A DNA stretch of 64,000 nucleotides, taken from the human T2T-CHM13v2.0 reference genome, Homo sapiens. This document shows positions 1 to 42,871 of the stretch, piece after piece (the stretch's first letter is position 1; each line of letters begins with the position of its first letter). The stretch lies in NCBI RefSeq assembly GCF_009914755.1, contig NC_060933.1, one strand, 5' to 3'. The position numbers and the translations under genes were made by a program. The notes beneath the pieces are model-generated. The model searched no databases. It was not told where the DNA came from and saw only the letters and a list, made by a program, of their open reading frames with translations.

Positions 1-94
1 CTCTAGGTCCTTGAATTTCAAATTGTTTACTTGAAATTGTTTCAAATAACCTGAATCCAGTTTATCCCTAATCTATTTGTCATTTTCTAATATG

Positions 95-250
95 GCTGTG
101 CTTTAGAATCATCTAGGGAGTTTTTAATCAGTATTGGGGCCCATCCTGGTGTAAGTCAGAATCTTGGGTGTGTGGCTTGTTCCTTGATTTTTTTTTTTAC
201 CAGCTTGTTAGGAGATTATAATGTGTATGAAAACTGAGAACCATTGCTGT
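95..250. mobile_element. MER5A-like hAT-Charlie MITE, degraded
   Basis: ttagaatcatctagggag...tcagaatct...tgagaaccattgc resembles MER5A (recall). Confidence 0.55.
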
Positions 251-393
251 ACACTTTTATAACCATTTGCATTTTTGTCTGGGTTTTCATTTCTTTTTTA
301 TTGGTTTGTCAGTCTCATATATGTCCCTTATTCAAAACAGATATACTTCTCCTTATTCTTCTAAGTGTAATTTGATTTCCTGTTTTTTTCTAG

Positions 394-640
394 GTGAGAT
401 GCTGCAGTGTGTGTCACTTTATTCACTTGAATCAGAATTCAGCTTTGTATATTGAATCCCAATTTTTATGGTTACATCTGAAGAGATAATCACCTATTTG
501 ATATTAACTGTAGAATCAGTCTTTGAAATTTATAATCTGAAGCATTACTAACTGCATTAAAGAACATTAACTGTTTTGTGACTTACACAGTTATTTCTTA
601 TTAATATGAATAAATTTGCAAAACTACTTGAATCATCCTG
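394..640 (+). other. KDM4C: Candidate alternative terminal exon of KDM4C, or recursive splice site, in the intron before exon 9
   Basis: tttcctgtttttttctag|gtgaga. Phase-0 frame is open for 31 codons (VRCCSVCHFIHLNQNSALYIESQFLWLHLKR, TAA 487-489). ATTAAA 556-561, AATAAA 609-614, GU/U-rich tract 641-668. Confidence 0.55.
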
Positions 641-819
641 CCATTCCTTTGGTGGCATTTGTTAGTTTCAAATAACTCTTAAGCAGAAATGCAGTACCTT
701 TTCTTATAGTAGATATTTATCTGAACAGTAGGATTTCGTTCTAAATATACGTACTTATAAAAGTGACCTTGTAGAAAGGCAAATAGTATTGACATGGTGA
801 TGATATGACACTTTCCTCA

Positions 820-2229
820 TTTTTTTTTTTTTTTTAGTGTGCTGTTTGCATTTTTTTTTTTTTTAATTGATCATTCTTGGGTGTTTCTCGCAGAGGGGGA
901 TTTGGCAGGGTCATAGGACAATAGTGGAGGGAAGGTCAGCAGATAAACAAGTGAACAAAGGTCTCTGGTTTTCCTAGGCAGAGGACCCTGCGGCCTTCCG
1001 CAGTGTTTGTGTCCCTGGGTACTTGAGATTAGGGAGTGGTGATGACTCTTAACGAGCATGCTGCCTTCAAGCATCTTTTTAACAAAGCACATCTTGCACC
1101 GCCCTTAATCCATTTAACCCTGAGTGGACACAGCACATGTTTCAGAGAGCACCGGGTTGGGGGTAAGGTCATAGATCAACAGGATCCCAAGGCAGAAGAA
1201 TTTTTCTTAGTACAGAACAAAATGGAGTCTCCTATGTCTACTTCTTTCTACACAGACGCAGCAACAATCTGATTTCTCTATCTTTTCCCCACATTTCCCC
1301 CTTTTCTATTCGACGAAACCGCCATCGTCATCATGGCCCGTTCTCATTGAGCTGTTGGGTACACCTCCCAGACGGGGTGGCGGCCGGGCAGAGGGGCTCC
1401 TTACTTCCCAGAAGGGGCGGCTGGGCAGAGGCGCCCCCCATCTCCCGGACGGGGCGGCTGGCCGGGTGGAGACGCTCCTCACTTCCCAGACGGGGCGGCT
1501 GCTGGGCGGAGGGGCTCCTCACTTCTTAGACGGGGTGGCTGCCGGGCGGAGGGGCTCCTCACTTCTCAGACGGGGCGGCCGGGCAGAGACGCTCCTCACC
1601 TCCCAGACGGGGTTGCGGCCGGGCAGAGGCGCTCCTCACATCCCAGATGATGGGTGGCCGGGCAGAGACGCTCCTCATTTCCTAGACGGGATGGCGGCCG
1701 GGAAGAGGCGCTCCTCACTTCCCAGACTGGGCAGAGGGGCTCCTCACATCCCAGACGATGAGTGGCCAGGCAGAGACGTTCCTCACTTCCCAGACGGGGT
1801 GGCGGCTGGGCAGAGGCTGTAATCTCGGCACTTTGGGAGGCCAAGGCAGGCGGCTGGGAGGTGGAGGTTGTAGCGAGCCAAGATCACGCCACTGCCCTCC
1901 AGCCTGGGCACCATTGAGCACTGAGTGAACGAGACTCCATCTGCAATCCCGGCACCTCGGGAGGCCGAGGCTGGCAGATCACTCGCGGTTAGGAGCTGGA
2001 GACCAGCCCGGCCAACACAGCGAAACCCCGTCTCCACCAAAAAAAATACGAAAACCAGTCAGGCGTGGCGGCGCGCGCCTGCAATCGCAGGCACTCAGCA
2101 GGCTGAGGCAGGAGAATCAGGCAGGGAGGTTGCAGTGAGCGGAGATGGCAGCAGTACAGTCCAGCTTCGGCTCGGCATCAGAGGGAGACCGTGGAGGGAG
2201 AGGGAGACCGTGGGGAGAGGGAGAGGGAC
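820..2229 (-). mobile_element. SVA retrotransposon, antisense to KDM4C, near full length with short hexamer head; older SVA_B/C-like SINE-R
   Basis: Poly-T 851-864 (and 820-835), SINE-R ~865-1360, GC-rich VNTR ~1365-1815, Alu-like domain ~1815-2175, (AGAGGG)n ~2180-2228. Candidate TSD CATTTTTTTT at 818-827 and 2230-2239. Confidence 0.95.
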
Positions 2230-2439
2230 CATTTTTTTTGTTAATGAAGCCAAAGAATCAGAGATAAATTGATGTTCTTTGTGGATTTTTGAGATCCCTG
2301 CATTAATTGATTTAAGGCTCAAGTATAACTAGCTTATTTAGCCCAAGGAGTCACATTTCTTCATAGTTAACTTTTGAAACTTCTCTGGCCACCCATGTGG
2401 CTGGTTTTTTTTTTTTTTTTGGTGGAGTATCTTTTCTTG

Positions 2440-2555
2440 TTTTTTTTTTTTCCTCAAGCTTTATTGAGATATAGTGGACAAATAAAAATGGTATGTATTT
2501 ACAGCATACAATGTGATGTTTTGAGATACATAAATATTTTGAAATGATTAGCAAA
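2440..2555 (-). mobile_element. L1MA-type 3' end fragment
   Basis: T-tract then ctttattgagatatag...acagcatacaatgtgatgttttgagatacata. Confidence 0.55.
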
Positions 2556-3377
2556 TTTTATTATAGAAGGTTGTCTTGAACCTTAAATTCTCCTTTCCAG
2601 AGGTTTTATTGATGTGAACTATTCTTTCTATAGTTCATTATGATTTTTCCCTTGTGTTTGTTAATGTTGGCATTTTAAATAATCATGGTAAGTAGAAATC
2701 TATGTTTAGAATGAAGAAAATTACACTGATCTAGGCTTTTTTGTTTTTGGTTTTATTTTTCCCTGTCTTTGAGAGTGCAGCCTCTAGGTATGGGGTAAAT
2801 TCATCCATACAGATTTTAGAGTGTTGATAGATTTGAGGGGAAGTATTTATGTGAAAACCTGTACTGGACAGTTGTTAATATGGATCCCTACTAAATTCAA
2901 AGCAAATTTAAGCTGCCTCATTGTCACTTAGCAATTAGATGATCATCAAATGCTGGTTTAAGTGAGATTATCTCTGTATTCTGTTTATTAATACTGATTA
3001 AACTCAAAACTAGCTCTTCTAGCTAGCCAATGTTCCCTCCTGATAACGTTTATTGTAGCTGCTTATTATCATTTACATAAAAGTTGAAGTTTTCAGGGAG
3101 AGAAAGCATACTTTTTTATGGTTAACCAACTAATAAATACCTTTAAGGAGGTGCATATGCCTTTTCATGGTTCATCCGGTTCAGTATCTTTTCTTTGACT
3201 GCTCTACCAAAAAGCTGTGGCTGAGTTAAAATCTCAGATCCTTAGTAGTCATGCCATGAACCTTTCCTTAAATGTTTCAGATAACAGAAAATACTTGAAT
3301 TTTGGGGGGAGGAGGAATAGCTTTACAGTACTTATTCTTTGCCATCTCTGAAGGGAGGCATTCATTTATTCATTCTT

Positions 3378-33279: not shown

Positions 33280-33473
33280 TGCACTTGCAGGAAAGACATG
33301 GTGAAGATTTCAATGGATATCTTTGTGAGGAAATTTCAGCCAGACAGATATCAGCTTTGGAAACAAGGAAAGGATATATACACCATTGATCACACGAAGC
33401 CTACTCCAGCATCCACCCCTGAAGTAAAAGCATGGCTGCAGAGGAGGAGGAAAGTAAGAAAAGCATCCCGAAG
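33280..33473 (+). CDS. KDM4C: KDM4C internal coding exon (probably exon 9, ~aa 308-372): Zn-binding CxC and C-terminal helices after JmjC, plus basic RRRKVRK stretch
   Basis: tttcag|TGC acceptor (AG 33278-79) and AAG|gtaatg donor (GT 33474-75). 194 nt, phase 0 to 2. Translates [64 protein letters not shown], recognised as KDM4C. Confidence 0.97.
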
Positions 33474-35808
33474 GTAATGACCCCTCACCCCACTGACCTG
33501 CCTTGCCTGTCGTGTTTTCTCAGTTAAAATGGGTCATTGGATGTGGCAATTTACTTGCTTTTTCTATTTATTCATCATAACTTAATACCTTTCTGAAAAT
33601 GTGAGACATTATTTTTAATTCTTAGGTGTGTAATAAATACAATATAGGAAGAGATGTATATTTATTTTGTTTGAGAATATTCCTGAAGTTGCTCGACATG
33701 GCAAATAGAACAATATAGAACTTGTTAGACCACTTACATGAATGTGTTTTATGGTTGTATTATTCCTTTCTGTGCATTTCCATATTTTAATCAATAACTT
33801 GATTTTCCACTTTTTCATTTTGCCACCATTTTGCTTTTTGGCTTTAGTGGTTATCTTCTTCATTTGTCCAACATCTGAGCTACTGCTCTCTTCTGGATGC
33901 TTATATTTTACTACATTTTATGCACATGGTTTTATTCTTTTGTAAGATGTAAAACACAGCATATAGCATTTCTGTAACATGCTTATCCTTGTGAACTTTA
34001 TTCTCCATTCCATCTTTGTGGCCAGGATCATTTCAAAAGCTTTTAGATGTGCTGTGGGCATCTTGTTGTTTTAAAACCTATTGAATAGGGTGTGTGTGGT
34101 GTTGCTCAGGTCCTTAGGCTACCTTTTAAGGGTCTTATGTTTTCCAATTTTATGTTAAATTTTCCTCTTCAATATTACTCATTGTTTTTCTTTCAGATTA
34201 TAAAAGTAATATTTGTGCATTGGAGGAAATTTGTAAAATAAGGAAAAGAATAATGAAGGAATCCCATATCACTCATAACCTCACTATCCAGAGATAACCA
34301 GTATTAACATTTTGTATATATCCTTTACCTATATATTTATTATATATTTTATAATATTATATATCTTTCCAAAATTGGGGCCATGCTCTGTTAATAATCT
34401 GACAATCAGTTTTGAGTGTTTTTTTCATGTAACTGATTGATTTGCTGCAACATAATTTTTAATGCCTGCATGTATTTAATCCCCTGTAGCTTGTGTCCAC
34501 TTTTTTGATATTAACTAAGTAACACCATAATTTTACATCTTTGCCCAGACTTATGATGCTTATTTTCTGTCTTTTTTTTTCCCTGATATTTATTTTCTGC
34601 TTATTTAGAGTGGTAGTGAGTGGAAGAACCTTAGGAACATGGAGTCAAACTTCGGCATCTTATAAGAGGTAGACCTGAGGTGCAGAACTAACTCAGGTGT
34701 TGATATTTCACCCTGTAGTTTACCGCAATGATCGTCAAAGTGTTTGTTAGTAGGTCAGGACCAACATTTTAAAATGAGGTGGTAAAATAGAATAAAAAGT
34801 ATTATAGTGCTTCCTCTGTGGTAAGGGCAAATATTCACTCATGACATGTGTGAGTATGTGTGTATGTGTGTATATAGTGTCACTATCTGAAATATATAAC
34901 TCACTGTGGGTTACATTCAAGAAAAGTTTGAGAAATACTAATTTGGACAGTCAGTGTCTTTGATAACTGTGTTAATTCACAGCACTAAAGAAGCCAGCGC
35001 TGGAAGGAGGCAGTATCCAATCCTGAGTTCAGAATACACACCAGGAGAACATCTTGAGCATTGTTCTGTCATGGATGGAAAACACAATATTTTCATTAGG
35101 TGTATGACTTGGTTTCCAGGTATTAACCACAGTGGGCCTTTTGGGTTGATAGAGAACATGGATTTATGACACTTGAACAGATCAAAATGCTTGTCAGTAG
35201 GTTCAAATAATCAATGGAACTTGCTCACCTACTTAGAAAGCCTGACTATGGGCTTGTTTAATATGCTCAGCCTTGTGGCTTGATATTTAGAGATTATTGA
35301 TCTCCCTTTGGAAATAGCCCATTTAGGGAAGTCTGATGAAGGGAATGATTCATTGATGTCTCAAGCACATGTCAGCCTTCTTTTTTTCACATATACTACA
35401 CTGTTTATAATGTTGAGATTTTCCCACATCAGCCAATGCATGGATTTGCAACAAAAGCAATGATGGTGATGATCATACTACTGCAGTTACTGCCATCAGT
35501 AGCAGTGAAAGCTAATTTATATAGGTTATCGCAGGCCACCCTATTCTCTGCCCTCCCTGACTTCCTACAGTGCTTAGTCCTGTGTTGGTTTCTTGTGTGT
35601 GTATAATACATATGGGTGTGTTTTGGACACTGTTGCTTTGAGTTGATTTGTAATTGTTCCTAATTGTTAGGAATGTTTGTTTCATATGTAAAAAGCATAT
35701 ATGCCAAAGCTATCAAGTGACCTGCTGGAAAATACTCAGGAAGAAGATAAAAATTGTGTTCACTCTGAAAATAGTATGTTGATGTACGATGTTAAATACA
35801 TAAAATTA

Positions 35809-36510: not shown

Positions 36511-36749
36511 CTTCCAGTGTGCTAGGTCTACCTCTAAAAGGCCTAAGGCTGATGAGGAAGAGGAAGTGTCAGATGAAGTCAATGGGGCAGAGGTCCCTAA
36601 CCCCGACTCAGTCACAGATGACCTCAAGGTCAGTGAAAAGTCAGAAGCAGCAGTGAAGCTGAGGAACACAGAAGCATCTTCAGAAGAAGAGTCATCTGCT
36701 AGCAGGATGCAGGTGGAGCAGAATTTATCAGATCATATCAAACTCTCAG
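36511..36749 (+). CDS. KDM4C: KDM4C coding exon (probably exon 10, ~aa 372-452), acidic disordered linker
   Basis: ttctcttgttgacag|C acceptor and CAG|gtgaga donor. 239 nt, phase 2 to 1. Translates (S)[33 protein letters not shown]...DHIKLS(G), in frame with the previous exon. Confidence 0.97.
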
Positions 36750-42762: not shown

Positions 42763-42871
42763 ATAGCAGAGGGAGAGAACAAAACCTCTAAGAGTTGGCG
42801 CCATCCACTTAGCAGGCCTCCAGCAAGATCTCCGATGACTCTTGTGAAGCAGCAGGCGCCAAGTGATGAAG
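42763..42871 (+). CDS. KDM4C: KDM4C coding exon (probably exon 12, ~aa 560-596)
   Basis: ttttgttctataactag|ATA acceptor and AAG|gtgaga donor. 109 nt, phase 0 to 1. Translates [36 protein letters not shown](E); too short to appear in the ORF track. Confidence 0.96.

What the first reader, a model, noticed from the sequence alone, without database searches (positions are those of the whole stretch)
372..670. Dual-use YAG|GTGAGA switch: recursive splice site or alternative last exon that swaps the Zn-binding CxC for a Cys/His-rich tail
Seen: a strong acceptor (tttcctgtttttttctag, AG 392-393) is followed immediately by GTGAGA, the same donor hexamer used by exons 10 and 12. This is the AG|GT geometry of recursive splicing in long introns. 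This intron is phase 0 (exon 9 starts on a whole TGC codon). If the site instead starts an exon, the frame stays open for 31 codons, VRCCSVCHFIHLNQNSALYIESQFLWLHLKR* (TAA 487-489), followed by ATTAAA 556, AATAAA 609 and a GU/U-rich tract. Known: the KDM4 structural Zn site uses the CxC encoded at the start of exon 9 (C306/C308 in KDM4A, about C308/C310 here). Inference: one junction could choose between re-splicing (full-length KDM4C) and polyadenylation (a ~338-aa JmjN-JmjC protein). The new tail keeps a Cys at the second-ligand position (V-R-C) and adds C, C, H nearby, so it may partly rebuild or poison the Zn site. A short isoform may already be annotated; I cannot check.
Basis: partly seen in the sequence, partly recalled or inferred. 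Interest (0 to 1): 0.8.

Follow-up and report, generated by a model that had tools for sequence, protein, structure and literature searches.

The report
KDM4C intron-8 recursive splice site
A strong acceptor-next-to-donor signal deep inside a long KDM4C intron is real and is already listed as a recursive splice site from a few brain RNA reads, while the proposed short protein isoform has no support.

Summary
These are the Py-rich acceptor ending AG 392-393, GTGAGA at 394, a phase-0 intron, a 31-codon frame to TAA 487-489, ATTAAA 556 and AATAAA 609.

The site lies 54,858 nt into the 87,744-nt intron 8 of KDM4C. It is the only YAG|GTRAG site with at least 14/16 pyrimidines in 264 kb of the gene, both strands. 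Markov simulations expect 0.035-0.065 per intron strand.

It maps onto GRCh38 chr9:6948033, a "finalist, nonexonic" recursive splice site in a 2026 preprint (PMC13622621). Support there is 46 exon-8-to-site target reads and 47-48 spliced reads, out of about 1.0e11 reads from 900 brain samples. Four earlier recursive-site sets do not list it.

So the acceptor is used in vivo at a low level. Re-splicing from the regenerated TTG|GTGAGA donor is the likeliest fate but has not been shown.

The alternative-last-exon and 338-aa protein idea is unsupported. No RefSeq or CHESS exon starts there. The open frame (17%), the poly(A) hexamers (13%) and the GU-richness are at chance level, and the Cys-rich tail follows from a (GT)4 tract.

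Verdict: already known; modest interest.

The parts
352..365 (+). Candidate branch points: CTTAT (A355, 38 nt before G393) and CTAAG (A364, 29 nt before G393)
   Evidence: Read against the yUnAy consensus, which I recall rather than took from a call. This is inference; no lariat data.
376..391 (+). Polypyrimidine tract tttcctgtttttttct (15/16 pyrimidines)
   Evidence: The census window -19..-4 scores 14/16.
392..393 (+). AG of the deep-intronic 3' splice site, used with the exon 8 donor
   Evidence: Junction reads are tabulated for GRCh38 chr9:6948033 in PMC13622621.
394..399 (+). GTGAGA, which becomes the regenerated 5' splice site TTG|GTGAGA once exon 8 is joined
   Evidence: It matches 7/9 of the consensus, the best GT between 380 and 934. 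It is the same 8-mer as the donor of the exon at 42763-42871.
394..489 (+). In-frame open stretch of 31 codons plus TAA; hypothetical tail only
   Evidence: The length is at chance level: 17.4% of intron positions do as well.
407..414 (+). (GT)4 inside a TG/GT-rich stretch that produces the Cys and Val codons of the hypothetical tail
   Evidence: 6 TG and 5 GT dinucleotides in the first 30 nt.
556..561 (+). ATTAAA hexamer
   Evidence: There are 80 in the sense strand of the intron.
609..614 (+). AATAAA hexamer, followed by a G/U-rich stretch at about 648-668; a possible but unproven poly(A) signal
   Evidence: There are 82 AATAAA in the sense strand of the intron, and its G/U context is of median rank.
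33280..33288 (+). Start of exon 9, TGC ACT TGC (CxC Zn ligands). This is the acceptor for the second step of recursion and for one-step splicing
   Evidence: The Zn ligands Cys234, His240, Cys306 and Cys308 of KDM4A are given in a passage of PMC6010108.

Best explanation
Window 393|394 is a deep-intronic composite splice site, 54,858 nt into the 87,744-nt intron 8 of KDM4C.

In a small share of transcripts the exon 8 donor is spliced to the AG at 392-393. This step is shown by published junction reads. The join places exon 8's last bases, TTG, in front of GTGAGA, which makes a good 5' splice site (7/9 consensus, paired from -1 to +5).

That site is then most likely spliced to exon 9, which removes the remaining 32,885 nt. 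This step is inferred. The mRNA that results is identical to the one made by one-step splicing. This is zero-length-exon recursive splicing.

The low read count, and the absence of any annotated exon, fit an occasional and harmless route rather than a regulated switch or a coding exon.
For: (1) Anatomy: candidate branch points, a 15/16 pyrimidine tract, AG and GTGAGA. Exon 8 ends TTG in phase 0. The regenerated TTG|GTGAGATG carries the same 8-mer as a constitutive KDM4C donor.

(2) Rarity: it is the only such site in the intron and in 264 kb of the gene on both strands at 14/16 pyrimidines. 0.035-0.065 are expected per intron strand.

(3) Use in vivo: PMC13622621 Tables S1 and S2 list chr9:6948033 + KDM4C as a nonexonic finalist, with target coverage 46 and spliced coverage 48 (CHESS) or 47 (GENCODE), in intron 6893233-6980924.

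(4) Mapping: the locus-to-intron-end distance is 32,891 nt in GRCh38 and 32,885 nt in T2T. The nearest other AGGT sites are 387 nt upstream and 541 nt downstream. Three other KDM4C sites from the same table map onto a T2T AGGT at offsets of 0, 0 and -14 nt.

(5) No competitor: no GT with at least 7/9 consensus lies between 395 and 934, so nothing competes with the regenerated donor.

(6) Donor quality: among the four KDM4C sites of that table that I read, this one has the best donor. The others are GTAGCC, GTAACT and GTCTCA.

(7) Method filter: by the method the preprint describes, retained loci had SPLAM scores of at least 0.5 for both acceptor and donor.
Against: - No evidence for the second step was seen. 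The site is 0 in the Hoppe 2023 (lariats), Zhang 2018 (junction/saw-tooth), Sibley 2015 and Wan 2021 columns of Table S3. KDM4C is also absent from the supplements I searched directly: the four uncut Zhang files, including the 342-site table S2 (the small sixth file was also searched), and three Hoppe files.
- Read support is small. It is 46 reads among about 1.02e11 reads from 900 samples, where the stated threshold is 40.
- The reads reach at most 75 nt past the junction. They therefore fit an unannotated exon as well as an intermediate.
- The vertebrate model needs an RS-exon with its own downstream donor (abstract of PMC6224609, seen in the listing). No good donor lies within 540 nt.
- Conservation could not be tested. 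The held text of Zhang's conservation-filtered candidate list stops at chr6.
Confidence: 0.6

Rival explanations
1. Splicing noise without recursion. The strong cryptic acceptor is occasionally picked, and the products are dead ends. They are either retained or decayed in the nucleus, or they use a weak downstream donor (763 or 797). The second case gives a 369-403-nt poison exon with the TAA at 487, which nonsense-mediated decay would remove.
For: - The junction count is very low.
- Other sites of the same list in KDM4C have poor donors: GTCTCA, GTAGCC. The list therefore records acceptor use rather than proven recursion.
- Weak 6/9 donors exist at 763 and 797.
- The preprint's own discussion sets its list against the stochastic splice-site selection view of Wan et al..
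Against: The regenerated donor (7/9, the same 8-mer as a constitutive exon donor) is much better than any downstream GT within 540 nt, so re-splicing should win. No exon is annotated here in RefSeq (hub table) or CHESS.
Confidence: 0.22
2. The site opens a cryptic last exon (394 to about 630-640) that is polyadenylated after AATAAA 609 when U1 fails to hold GTGAGA. The product would be a protein of about 338 aa, JmjN-JmjC, whose last 31 residues replace the CxC Zn ligands.
For: - The frame is open for 31 codons in phase 0.
- ATTAAA and AATAAA lie 162 and 215 nt downstream, with a G/U-rich stretch after them.
- With no downstream donor, the acceptor could be paired with a poly(A) site for terminal-exon definition. 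This is inference.
- The published reads are compatible with such an exon.
- A KDM4C intronic-polyadenylation isoform is mentioned in PMC11289681, but the text held does not say where it lies.
Against: - No exon starts here in 25 RefSeq transcripts (hub table), and CHESS v3.1.3 calls the locus nonexonic.
- The frame length, hexamer count and G/U context are what chance gives: 17.4%, 12.6% and the 41st percentile.
- A good U1 site 215 nt upstream of the hexamer should suppress cleavage. This rests on established knowledge of U1 telescripting, which I recall.
- The Cys-rich start of the tail follows from a (GT)4/TG-rich tract.
- The tail lacks the Arg after the CxC that helps substrate recognition, and ejecting the Zn inhibits KDM4A (passages of PMC6010108). 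The protein would therefore probably be inactive or unstable.
Confidence: 0.1
3. The motif is a chance match that is never spliced, and the tabulated reads are artefacts of alignment or reverse transcription.
For: About 0.05 such sites are expected per intron by chance, which means hundreds genome-wide. Only 46 reads support it.
Against: The preprint required reads at 23 or more distinct alignment positions, from 28 or more samples, plus independent spliced alignment. 9 of 100,000 control loci passed these filters. The join falls exactly at a canonical AG, with a branch-point-like site and a pyrimidine tract before it.
Confidence: 0.05

Closest known systems
Recursive splice sites in human long introns (Sibley 2015; Zhang 2018, PMC6110456; Hoppe 2023, PMC10156609; Bass & Salzberg 2026 preprint, PMC13622621)
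   Same: YAG|GT composite site deep in a long (87.7 kb) intron. There are junction reads from the upstream exon to the base after the AG. The locus itself is listed as a finalist site in PMC13622621.
   Different: No second-step evidence (lariat or saw-tooth). It is not in the four earlier sets. No downstream donor defines an RS-exon. Read support is just above the cut-off.
Zero-nucleotide-exon ratchet points of Drosophila (Duff 2015; cited in PMC13622621 and seen in its reference list only)
   Same: A long pyrimidine tract, AG and then immediately GTRAG; no exon sequence is kept.
   Different: The fly sites are conserved and used constitutively, with clear saw-tooth patterns. I recall this. 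Neither property is shown here.
Cryptic last exons and composite terminal exons, i.e. intronic polyadenylation held in check by U1 or SFPQ (PMC7997972 and PMC4227790, seen as abstracts in the listing)
   Same: An intronic acceptor followed within about 215 nt by AATAAA, with a 5' splice site that would compete with cleavage.
   Different: No 3'-end evidence and no annotation exist here. The 'exon' between acceptor and donor has length zero, which is not the usual composite-exon layout.

Membership tests
Recursive splice site | Acceptor (pyrimidine tract plus YAG) directly abutting GT, inside a long intron and away from annotated exons | tested here: met
   The intron is 87,744 nt. CHESS flags the locus 'nonexonic', and the RefSeq table from the hub has no exon there.
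Recursive splice site | RNA junctions joining the upstream exon to the first base after the AG | tested here: met
   I have no reads of my own. PMC13622621 Tables S1 and S2 give 46 target reads and 48 or 47 spliced reads.
Recursive splice site | The regenerated 5' splice site is used: a lariat from the site, a saw-tooth in nascent RNA, or kinetic data | not testable with these tools
   No read data are at hand. The site is absent from the lariat, 4sU, iCLIP and pulse-chase sets as tabulated in Table S3. KDM4C is absent from the Zhang and Hoppe supplements searched.
Recursive splice site | Vertebrate RS-exon: a downstream 5' splice site that defines an exon at the first step (abstract of PMC6224609) | tested here: not met
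   No GT with at least 7/9 consensus lies between 395 and 934. Only 6/9 sites occur, at 409, 763 and 797. The scoring is a simple consensus count, not MaxEnt.
Recursive splice site | Evolutionary conservation of the AGGT and the tract | not testable with these tools
   No other vertebrate genome is held. The held text of Zhang's PhastCons-filtered list ends at chr6.
Alternative or cryptic last exon (intronic polyadenylation isoform) | A mapped cleavage/poly(A) site downstream of the acceptor | not testable with these tools
   Only the hexamers are seen. The place of the KDM4C IPA isoform of PMC11289681 is not given in the text held, and its tables are not held.
Alternative or cryptic last exon (intronic polyadenylation isoform) | A transcript model or junction with an exon that starts at the site | tested here: not met
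   No RefSeq exon starts at 394 (hub table). CHESS v3.1.3 flags the locus 'nonexonic'. In the GENCODE v47 run the locus passed the filter against annotated junctions, which has two stated exception classes.
KDM4 catalytic core with intact structural Zn site | Four ligands equivalent to KDM4A Cys234, His240, Cys306 and Cys308 | tested here: not met
   The hypothetical isoform would lose the CxC encoded at 33280-33288. Whether the tail's Cys residues could substitute was not modelled, because a spliced, joined protein could not be submitted.

The most novel reading that the evidence does not exclude
The AG|GTGAGA is a U1-gated, zero-length composite terminal exon. When U1 occupies the regenerated donor, the transcript re-splices to exon 9 and makes full-length KDM4C. 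When U1 is limiting, the same acceptor pairs with AATAAA 609, and a JmjN-JmjC fragment of about 338 aa is made. That fragment lacks two Zn ligands and the C-terminal helices, and would act as an unstable or dominant-negative form.
Probability: 0.05. Interest if true: 0.6.

Novelty: already known. Interest (0 to 1): 0.27.

Why it matters
If recursion here is real, it is one more case of a long human intron being removed in two pieces (54.9 kb and 32.9 kb). It would have an unusually clean fly-like geometry and no RS-exon, which bears on whether vertebrates need exon definition for recursion.

In practice, the site is a strong latent acceptor inside an oncogene-associated demethylase gene. A variant that weakens GTGAGA, or a drop in U1, could turn it into a truncating exon.

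The protein-level idea would matter only if 3'-end data showed the isoform, and at present nothing does.

Tried and rejected
**Searches that gave nothing or could not answer**
- Zhang 2018 supplements: 'KDM4C' has 0 occurrences in 6 files. File 1, the 36,870 putative sites, is held only up to chr6, so it says nothing about chr9.
- Hoppe 2023 supplements: 0 occurrences in 3 files.
- Phrase searches across table cells ('chr9 694' and similar) found nothing, and the positive control also failed. Searches are therefore uninformative. Number-prefix searches worked.
- Pan-cancer intronic polyadenylation paper: it names a KDM4C IPA isoform but gives no place. Only 2 small supplement files are held.
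- Literature searches on KDM4C with recursive splicing (1 paper, irrelevant by title and abstract), with cryptic or poison exon and telescripting (none of the 20 listed holds KDM4C), with short or truncated isoform (nothing on this site among the 20 listed) and with 'intron 8' (5 papers, none on splicing of KDM4C by title and abstract).
- Sibley 2015 (PMC4471124) is not held.

**Sequence checks that came back negative**
- RNA structure around the site: none beyond shuffles (z -0.14).
- Rfam over 1-3000: only two weak SRP/Alu-like hits, inside the repeat at 1920-2170.
- Repeat origin of 300-700: one match in the genome, itself.
- The exon at 34197-35119 of other transcripts was checked as a possible known short-isoform end. 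It has a donor (ttccag|gtatta at 35120), so it is internal.

**Steps not completed**
The census uses 264 kb of the roughly 457-kb gene.
- The hypothetical 338-aa protein was not modelled, because it would need joined exons.

Full report
**What is in the sequence**

Window 376-391 is tttcctgtttttttct. AG lies at 392-393 and GTGAGA at 394-399. Two branch-point-like sites precede it, CTTAT with A355 and CTAAG with A364. I read these against a consensus I recall.

Translation from 394 gives 31 codons, VRCC...LKR, and then TAA at 487-489. ATTAAA is at 556 and AATAAA at 609, followed by a G/U-rich stretch. The exons at 36511-36749 and 42763-42871 end CAG|GTGAGA and AAG|GTGAGATG. The second is the same 8-mer as at 394.

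The exon at 33280 begins TGC ACT TGC, i.e. CTCRKD. It aligns to solved KDM4C, KDM4B and KDM4A chains, with its first Cys at KDM4A position 306. A review passage gives the KDM4A Zn ligands as Cys234, His240, Cys306 and Cys308 (PMC6010108).

**Where it lies**

The window's genome is held. A Pfam JmjC search found the preceding KDM4C exon about 54.5 kb upstream of the window. That exon ends ...GCC AAA TTG|GTAAGC on a whole codon.

Intron 8 is therefore T2T chr9:6889536-6977279, 87,744 nt, phase 0. The site is 54,858 nt from the start of the intron and 32,885 nt from its end. After a first splice, the junction would read TTG|GTGAGATG. The stretch 300-700 has only itself as a match in the genome.

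**Is it more than chance?**

I counted sites with YAG|GTRAG, no AG in the 15 nt before the site, and a pyrimidine count over positions -19..-4.

| Sequence examined | At least 11/16 pyrimidines | At least 14/16 pyrimidines |
|---|---|---|
| Intron 8, and 119 kb on both strands | 1 (this site) | 1 (this site) |
| 264 kb of KDM4C on both strands (14 motif sites) | 4, all on the sense strand | 1 (this site) |
| Markov simulations of the intron, orders 1, 3, 5, 200 each (expected per strand) | 0.67-0.87 | 0.035-0.065 |

The composite site is therefore uncommon for one intron, about 1 in 20. Hundreds would still be expected genome-wide, and the thresholds were chosen after seeing it.

The other features are ordinary:
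- 17.4% of intron positions are followed by at least 31 open codons.
- 12.6% of positions have at least 2 AATAAA/ATTAAA hexamers within 300 nt. There are 162 hexamers in the sense strand of the intron.
- 41% of those hexamers have an equally G/U-rich downstream stretch.

There is no local RNA structure (z -0.14) and no Rfam family at the site.

**Evidence from print**

A September 2026 preprint (Bass & Salzberg, PMC13622621) aligned total RNA-seq to 150-nt targets. Each target joins the last 75 nt of an exon to the 75 nt that start at the GT of an intronic AGGT. The data were 900 brain samples and about 1.02e11 reads.

The authors required 40 or more reads at 23 or more alignment positions, from 28 or more samples, plus spliced alignment. 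9 of 100,000 control loci passed (I read the Results and Methods sections).

The supplement, which I searched and read in part, shows:
- Tables S1 and S2 list chr9:6948033, +, KDM4C, 'nonexonic', finalist. Target coverage is 46 and spliced coverage 48 (CHESS) or 47 (GENCODE). The intron is 6893233-6980924, 87,692 nt.
- Table S3 marks the locus 1 for both of their runs. It marks 0 for Hoppe 2023, Zhang 2018, Sibley 2015 and Wan 2021.

**Mapping to the window**

In GRCh38 the locus is 54,800 nt from the intron start and 32,891 nt from its end. In T2T the G at window 394 is 54,858 nt and 32,885 nt away. The nearest other AGGT sites are 387 nt upstream and 541 nt downstream. Three other KDM4C loci of the same table fall on a T2T AGGT at offsets of 0, 0 and -14 nt when placed by intron distance. 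The listed site is the finding's site.

**What this does and does not show**

The reads show that the acceptor at 393 is used with the exon 8 donor in human brain, at a low steady-state level. They reach at most 75 nt beyond the junction. They therefore cannot tell a recursion intermediate from an unannotated internal or terminal exon. The preprint does not address that distinction in the sections I read.

The other KDM4C sites in its list have poor donors: GTAGCC, GTAACT and GTCTCA. The list therefore records acceptor use first of all.

For this site the donor is good. It matches 7/9 of the consensus, pairs from -1 to +5, and is identical to a constitutive donor of the gene. No GT of at least 7/9 lies within 540 nt downstream. 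Re-splicing is therefore the expected fate.

That is inference. I found no lariat or saw-tooth evidence. KDM4C is absent from the Zhang files searched (the 342-site table included) and from the Hoppe files. Zhang's large conservation-filtered candidate table is held only up to chr6, so conservation remains untested.

**The alternative-last-exon and protein idea**

No exon starts at 394 in the RefSeq table supplied with the finding (25 transcripts), and CHESS v3.1.3 calls the locus nonexonic. The frame and the poly(A) hexamers are at chance level. The Cys/Val/His start of the tail is what a TG/GT-rich tract encodes: TGCTGCAGTGTGTGTCAC with (GT)4 at 407-414, and 6 TG plus 5 GT dinucleotides in the first 30 nt.

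A strong U1 site 215 nt upstream of AATAAA would be expected to suppress cleavage there. This rests on U1 telescripting, which I recall. The tail also lacks the Arg after the CxC that helps substrate recognition, and Zn ejection inhibits KDM4A (PMC6010108 passages). Such a protein would probably be inactive.

A KDM4C intronic-polyadenylation isoform is reported in TCGA data (PMC11289681), but neither the text nor the files held say where it lies. A rare terminal exon is not excluded. I put it at about 0.1, and a functional switch at about 0.05.

**Comparison with known kinds**

The site works like a zero-length-exon recursive splice site, the fly-type geometry.

- Features met: the composite motif in a long intron, and the upstream-exon junction reads.
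- Not testable here: the second step, and conservation.
- Not met, by a simple consensus count: the vertebrate RS-exon feature.

As a cryptic last exon it has a possible signal but no 3'-end evidence and no annotation.

**Verdict**

The recursive-splice reading is supported at the level of the first step and is already in print as a table entry. The isoform and Zn-tail reading is unsupported. Novelty: already known. Interest: modest.

Noticed in passing
window 808-2231, minus strand: An SVA-like composite retroelement lies antisense to KDM4C. It has a poly-T at about 823-870, GC-rich 35-50-nt repeats at about 1370-1800, an Alu-like part (weak Rfam SRP hits on + at 1920-2036 and 2058-2170) and (AGAGGG)n at about 2160-2225. 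The family name is my own recognition, not a tool result. It begins about 195 nt after AATAAA 609, so the far flank of any poly(A) site here is young, primate-specific DNA.
   Followed up: partly
GRCh38 chr9:6893233 = T2T chr9:6889536 (first base of intron 8; L014 position 1666): Table S3 of PMC13622621 carries a 'Sibley 2015 only' entry exactly on the first base of KDM4C intron 8. The sequence there is TTG|GTAAGC, not AGGT. It may be a coordinate or column artefact, or a sign that Sibley's putative list flagged this intron. Sibley's paper and table are not held.
   Followed up: partly
T2T chr9:6890903 (L032), 6840140 and 6822061 (L041, L039): Three other KDM4C 'recursive splice sites' of the same preprint have weak donors after the AG: GTCTCA, GTAGCC and GTAACT. 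One of them (GRCh38 6894600) is also in intron 8, 1,367 nt from its start. They look more like acceptor-only events.
   Followed up: partly
T2T chr9:7082998 and 7122724 (L043, L047), and 6847582 (L041): Three further sense-strand YAG|GTRAG sites have 11-12/16 pyrimidines. Two carry GTAAGT or GTAAGG donors, and one has the look of antisense-Alu sequence. None appears among the chr9 + entries between 6.8 and 15 Mb in Table S3. The motif alone therefore does not predict listed use. I did not check whether they touch annotated exons.
   Followed up: no
intron 8, T2T chr9:6889536-6977279: There is strand asymmetry. The sense strand is 33.9% T. It holds 82 AATAAA against 142 on the antisense strand, and 80 ATTAAA against 100. 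All 4 composite sites with at least 11/16 pyrimidines in 264 kb are on the sense strand.
   Followed up: no
window -6307..-796 (L037, L036), + strand: The annotated lncRNA LOC124906806 lies in the same intron on the same strand. Its annotated 3' end, at window -796, comes about 20 nt after an ATTAAA. It could mark intronic polyadenylation 1.2 kb upstream of the site. I did not examine its relation to KDM4C transcripts.
   Followed up: partly
window 34197-35119: This exon of other KDM4C transcripts is flanked by ctttcag| and |gtatta, so it is an internal exon of 923 nt, not a terminal one. It follows exon 9 and is AT-rich with many stop codons. It is probably a non-coding or decay-targeted variant.
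   Followed up: no
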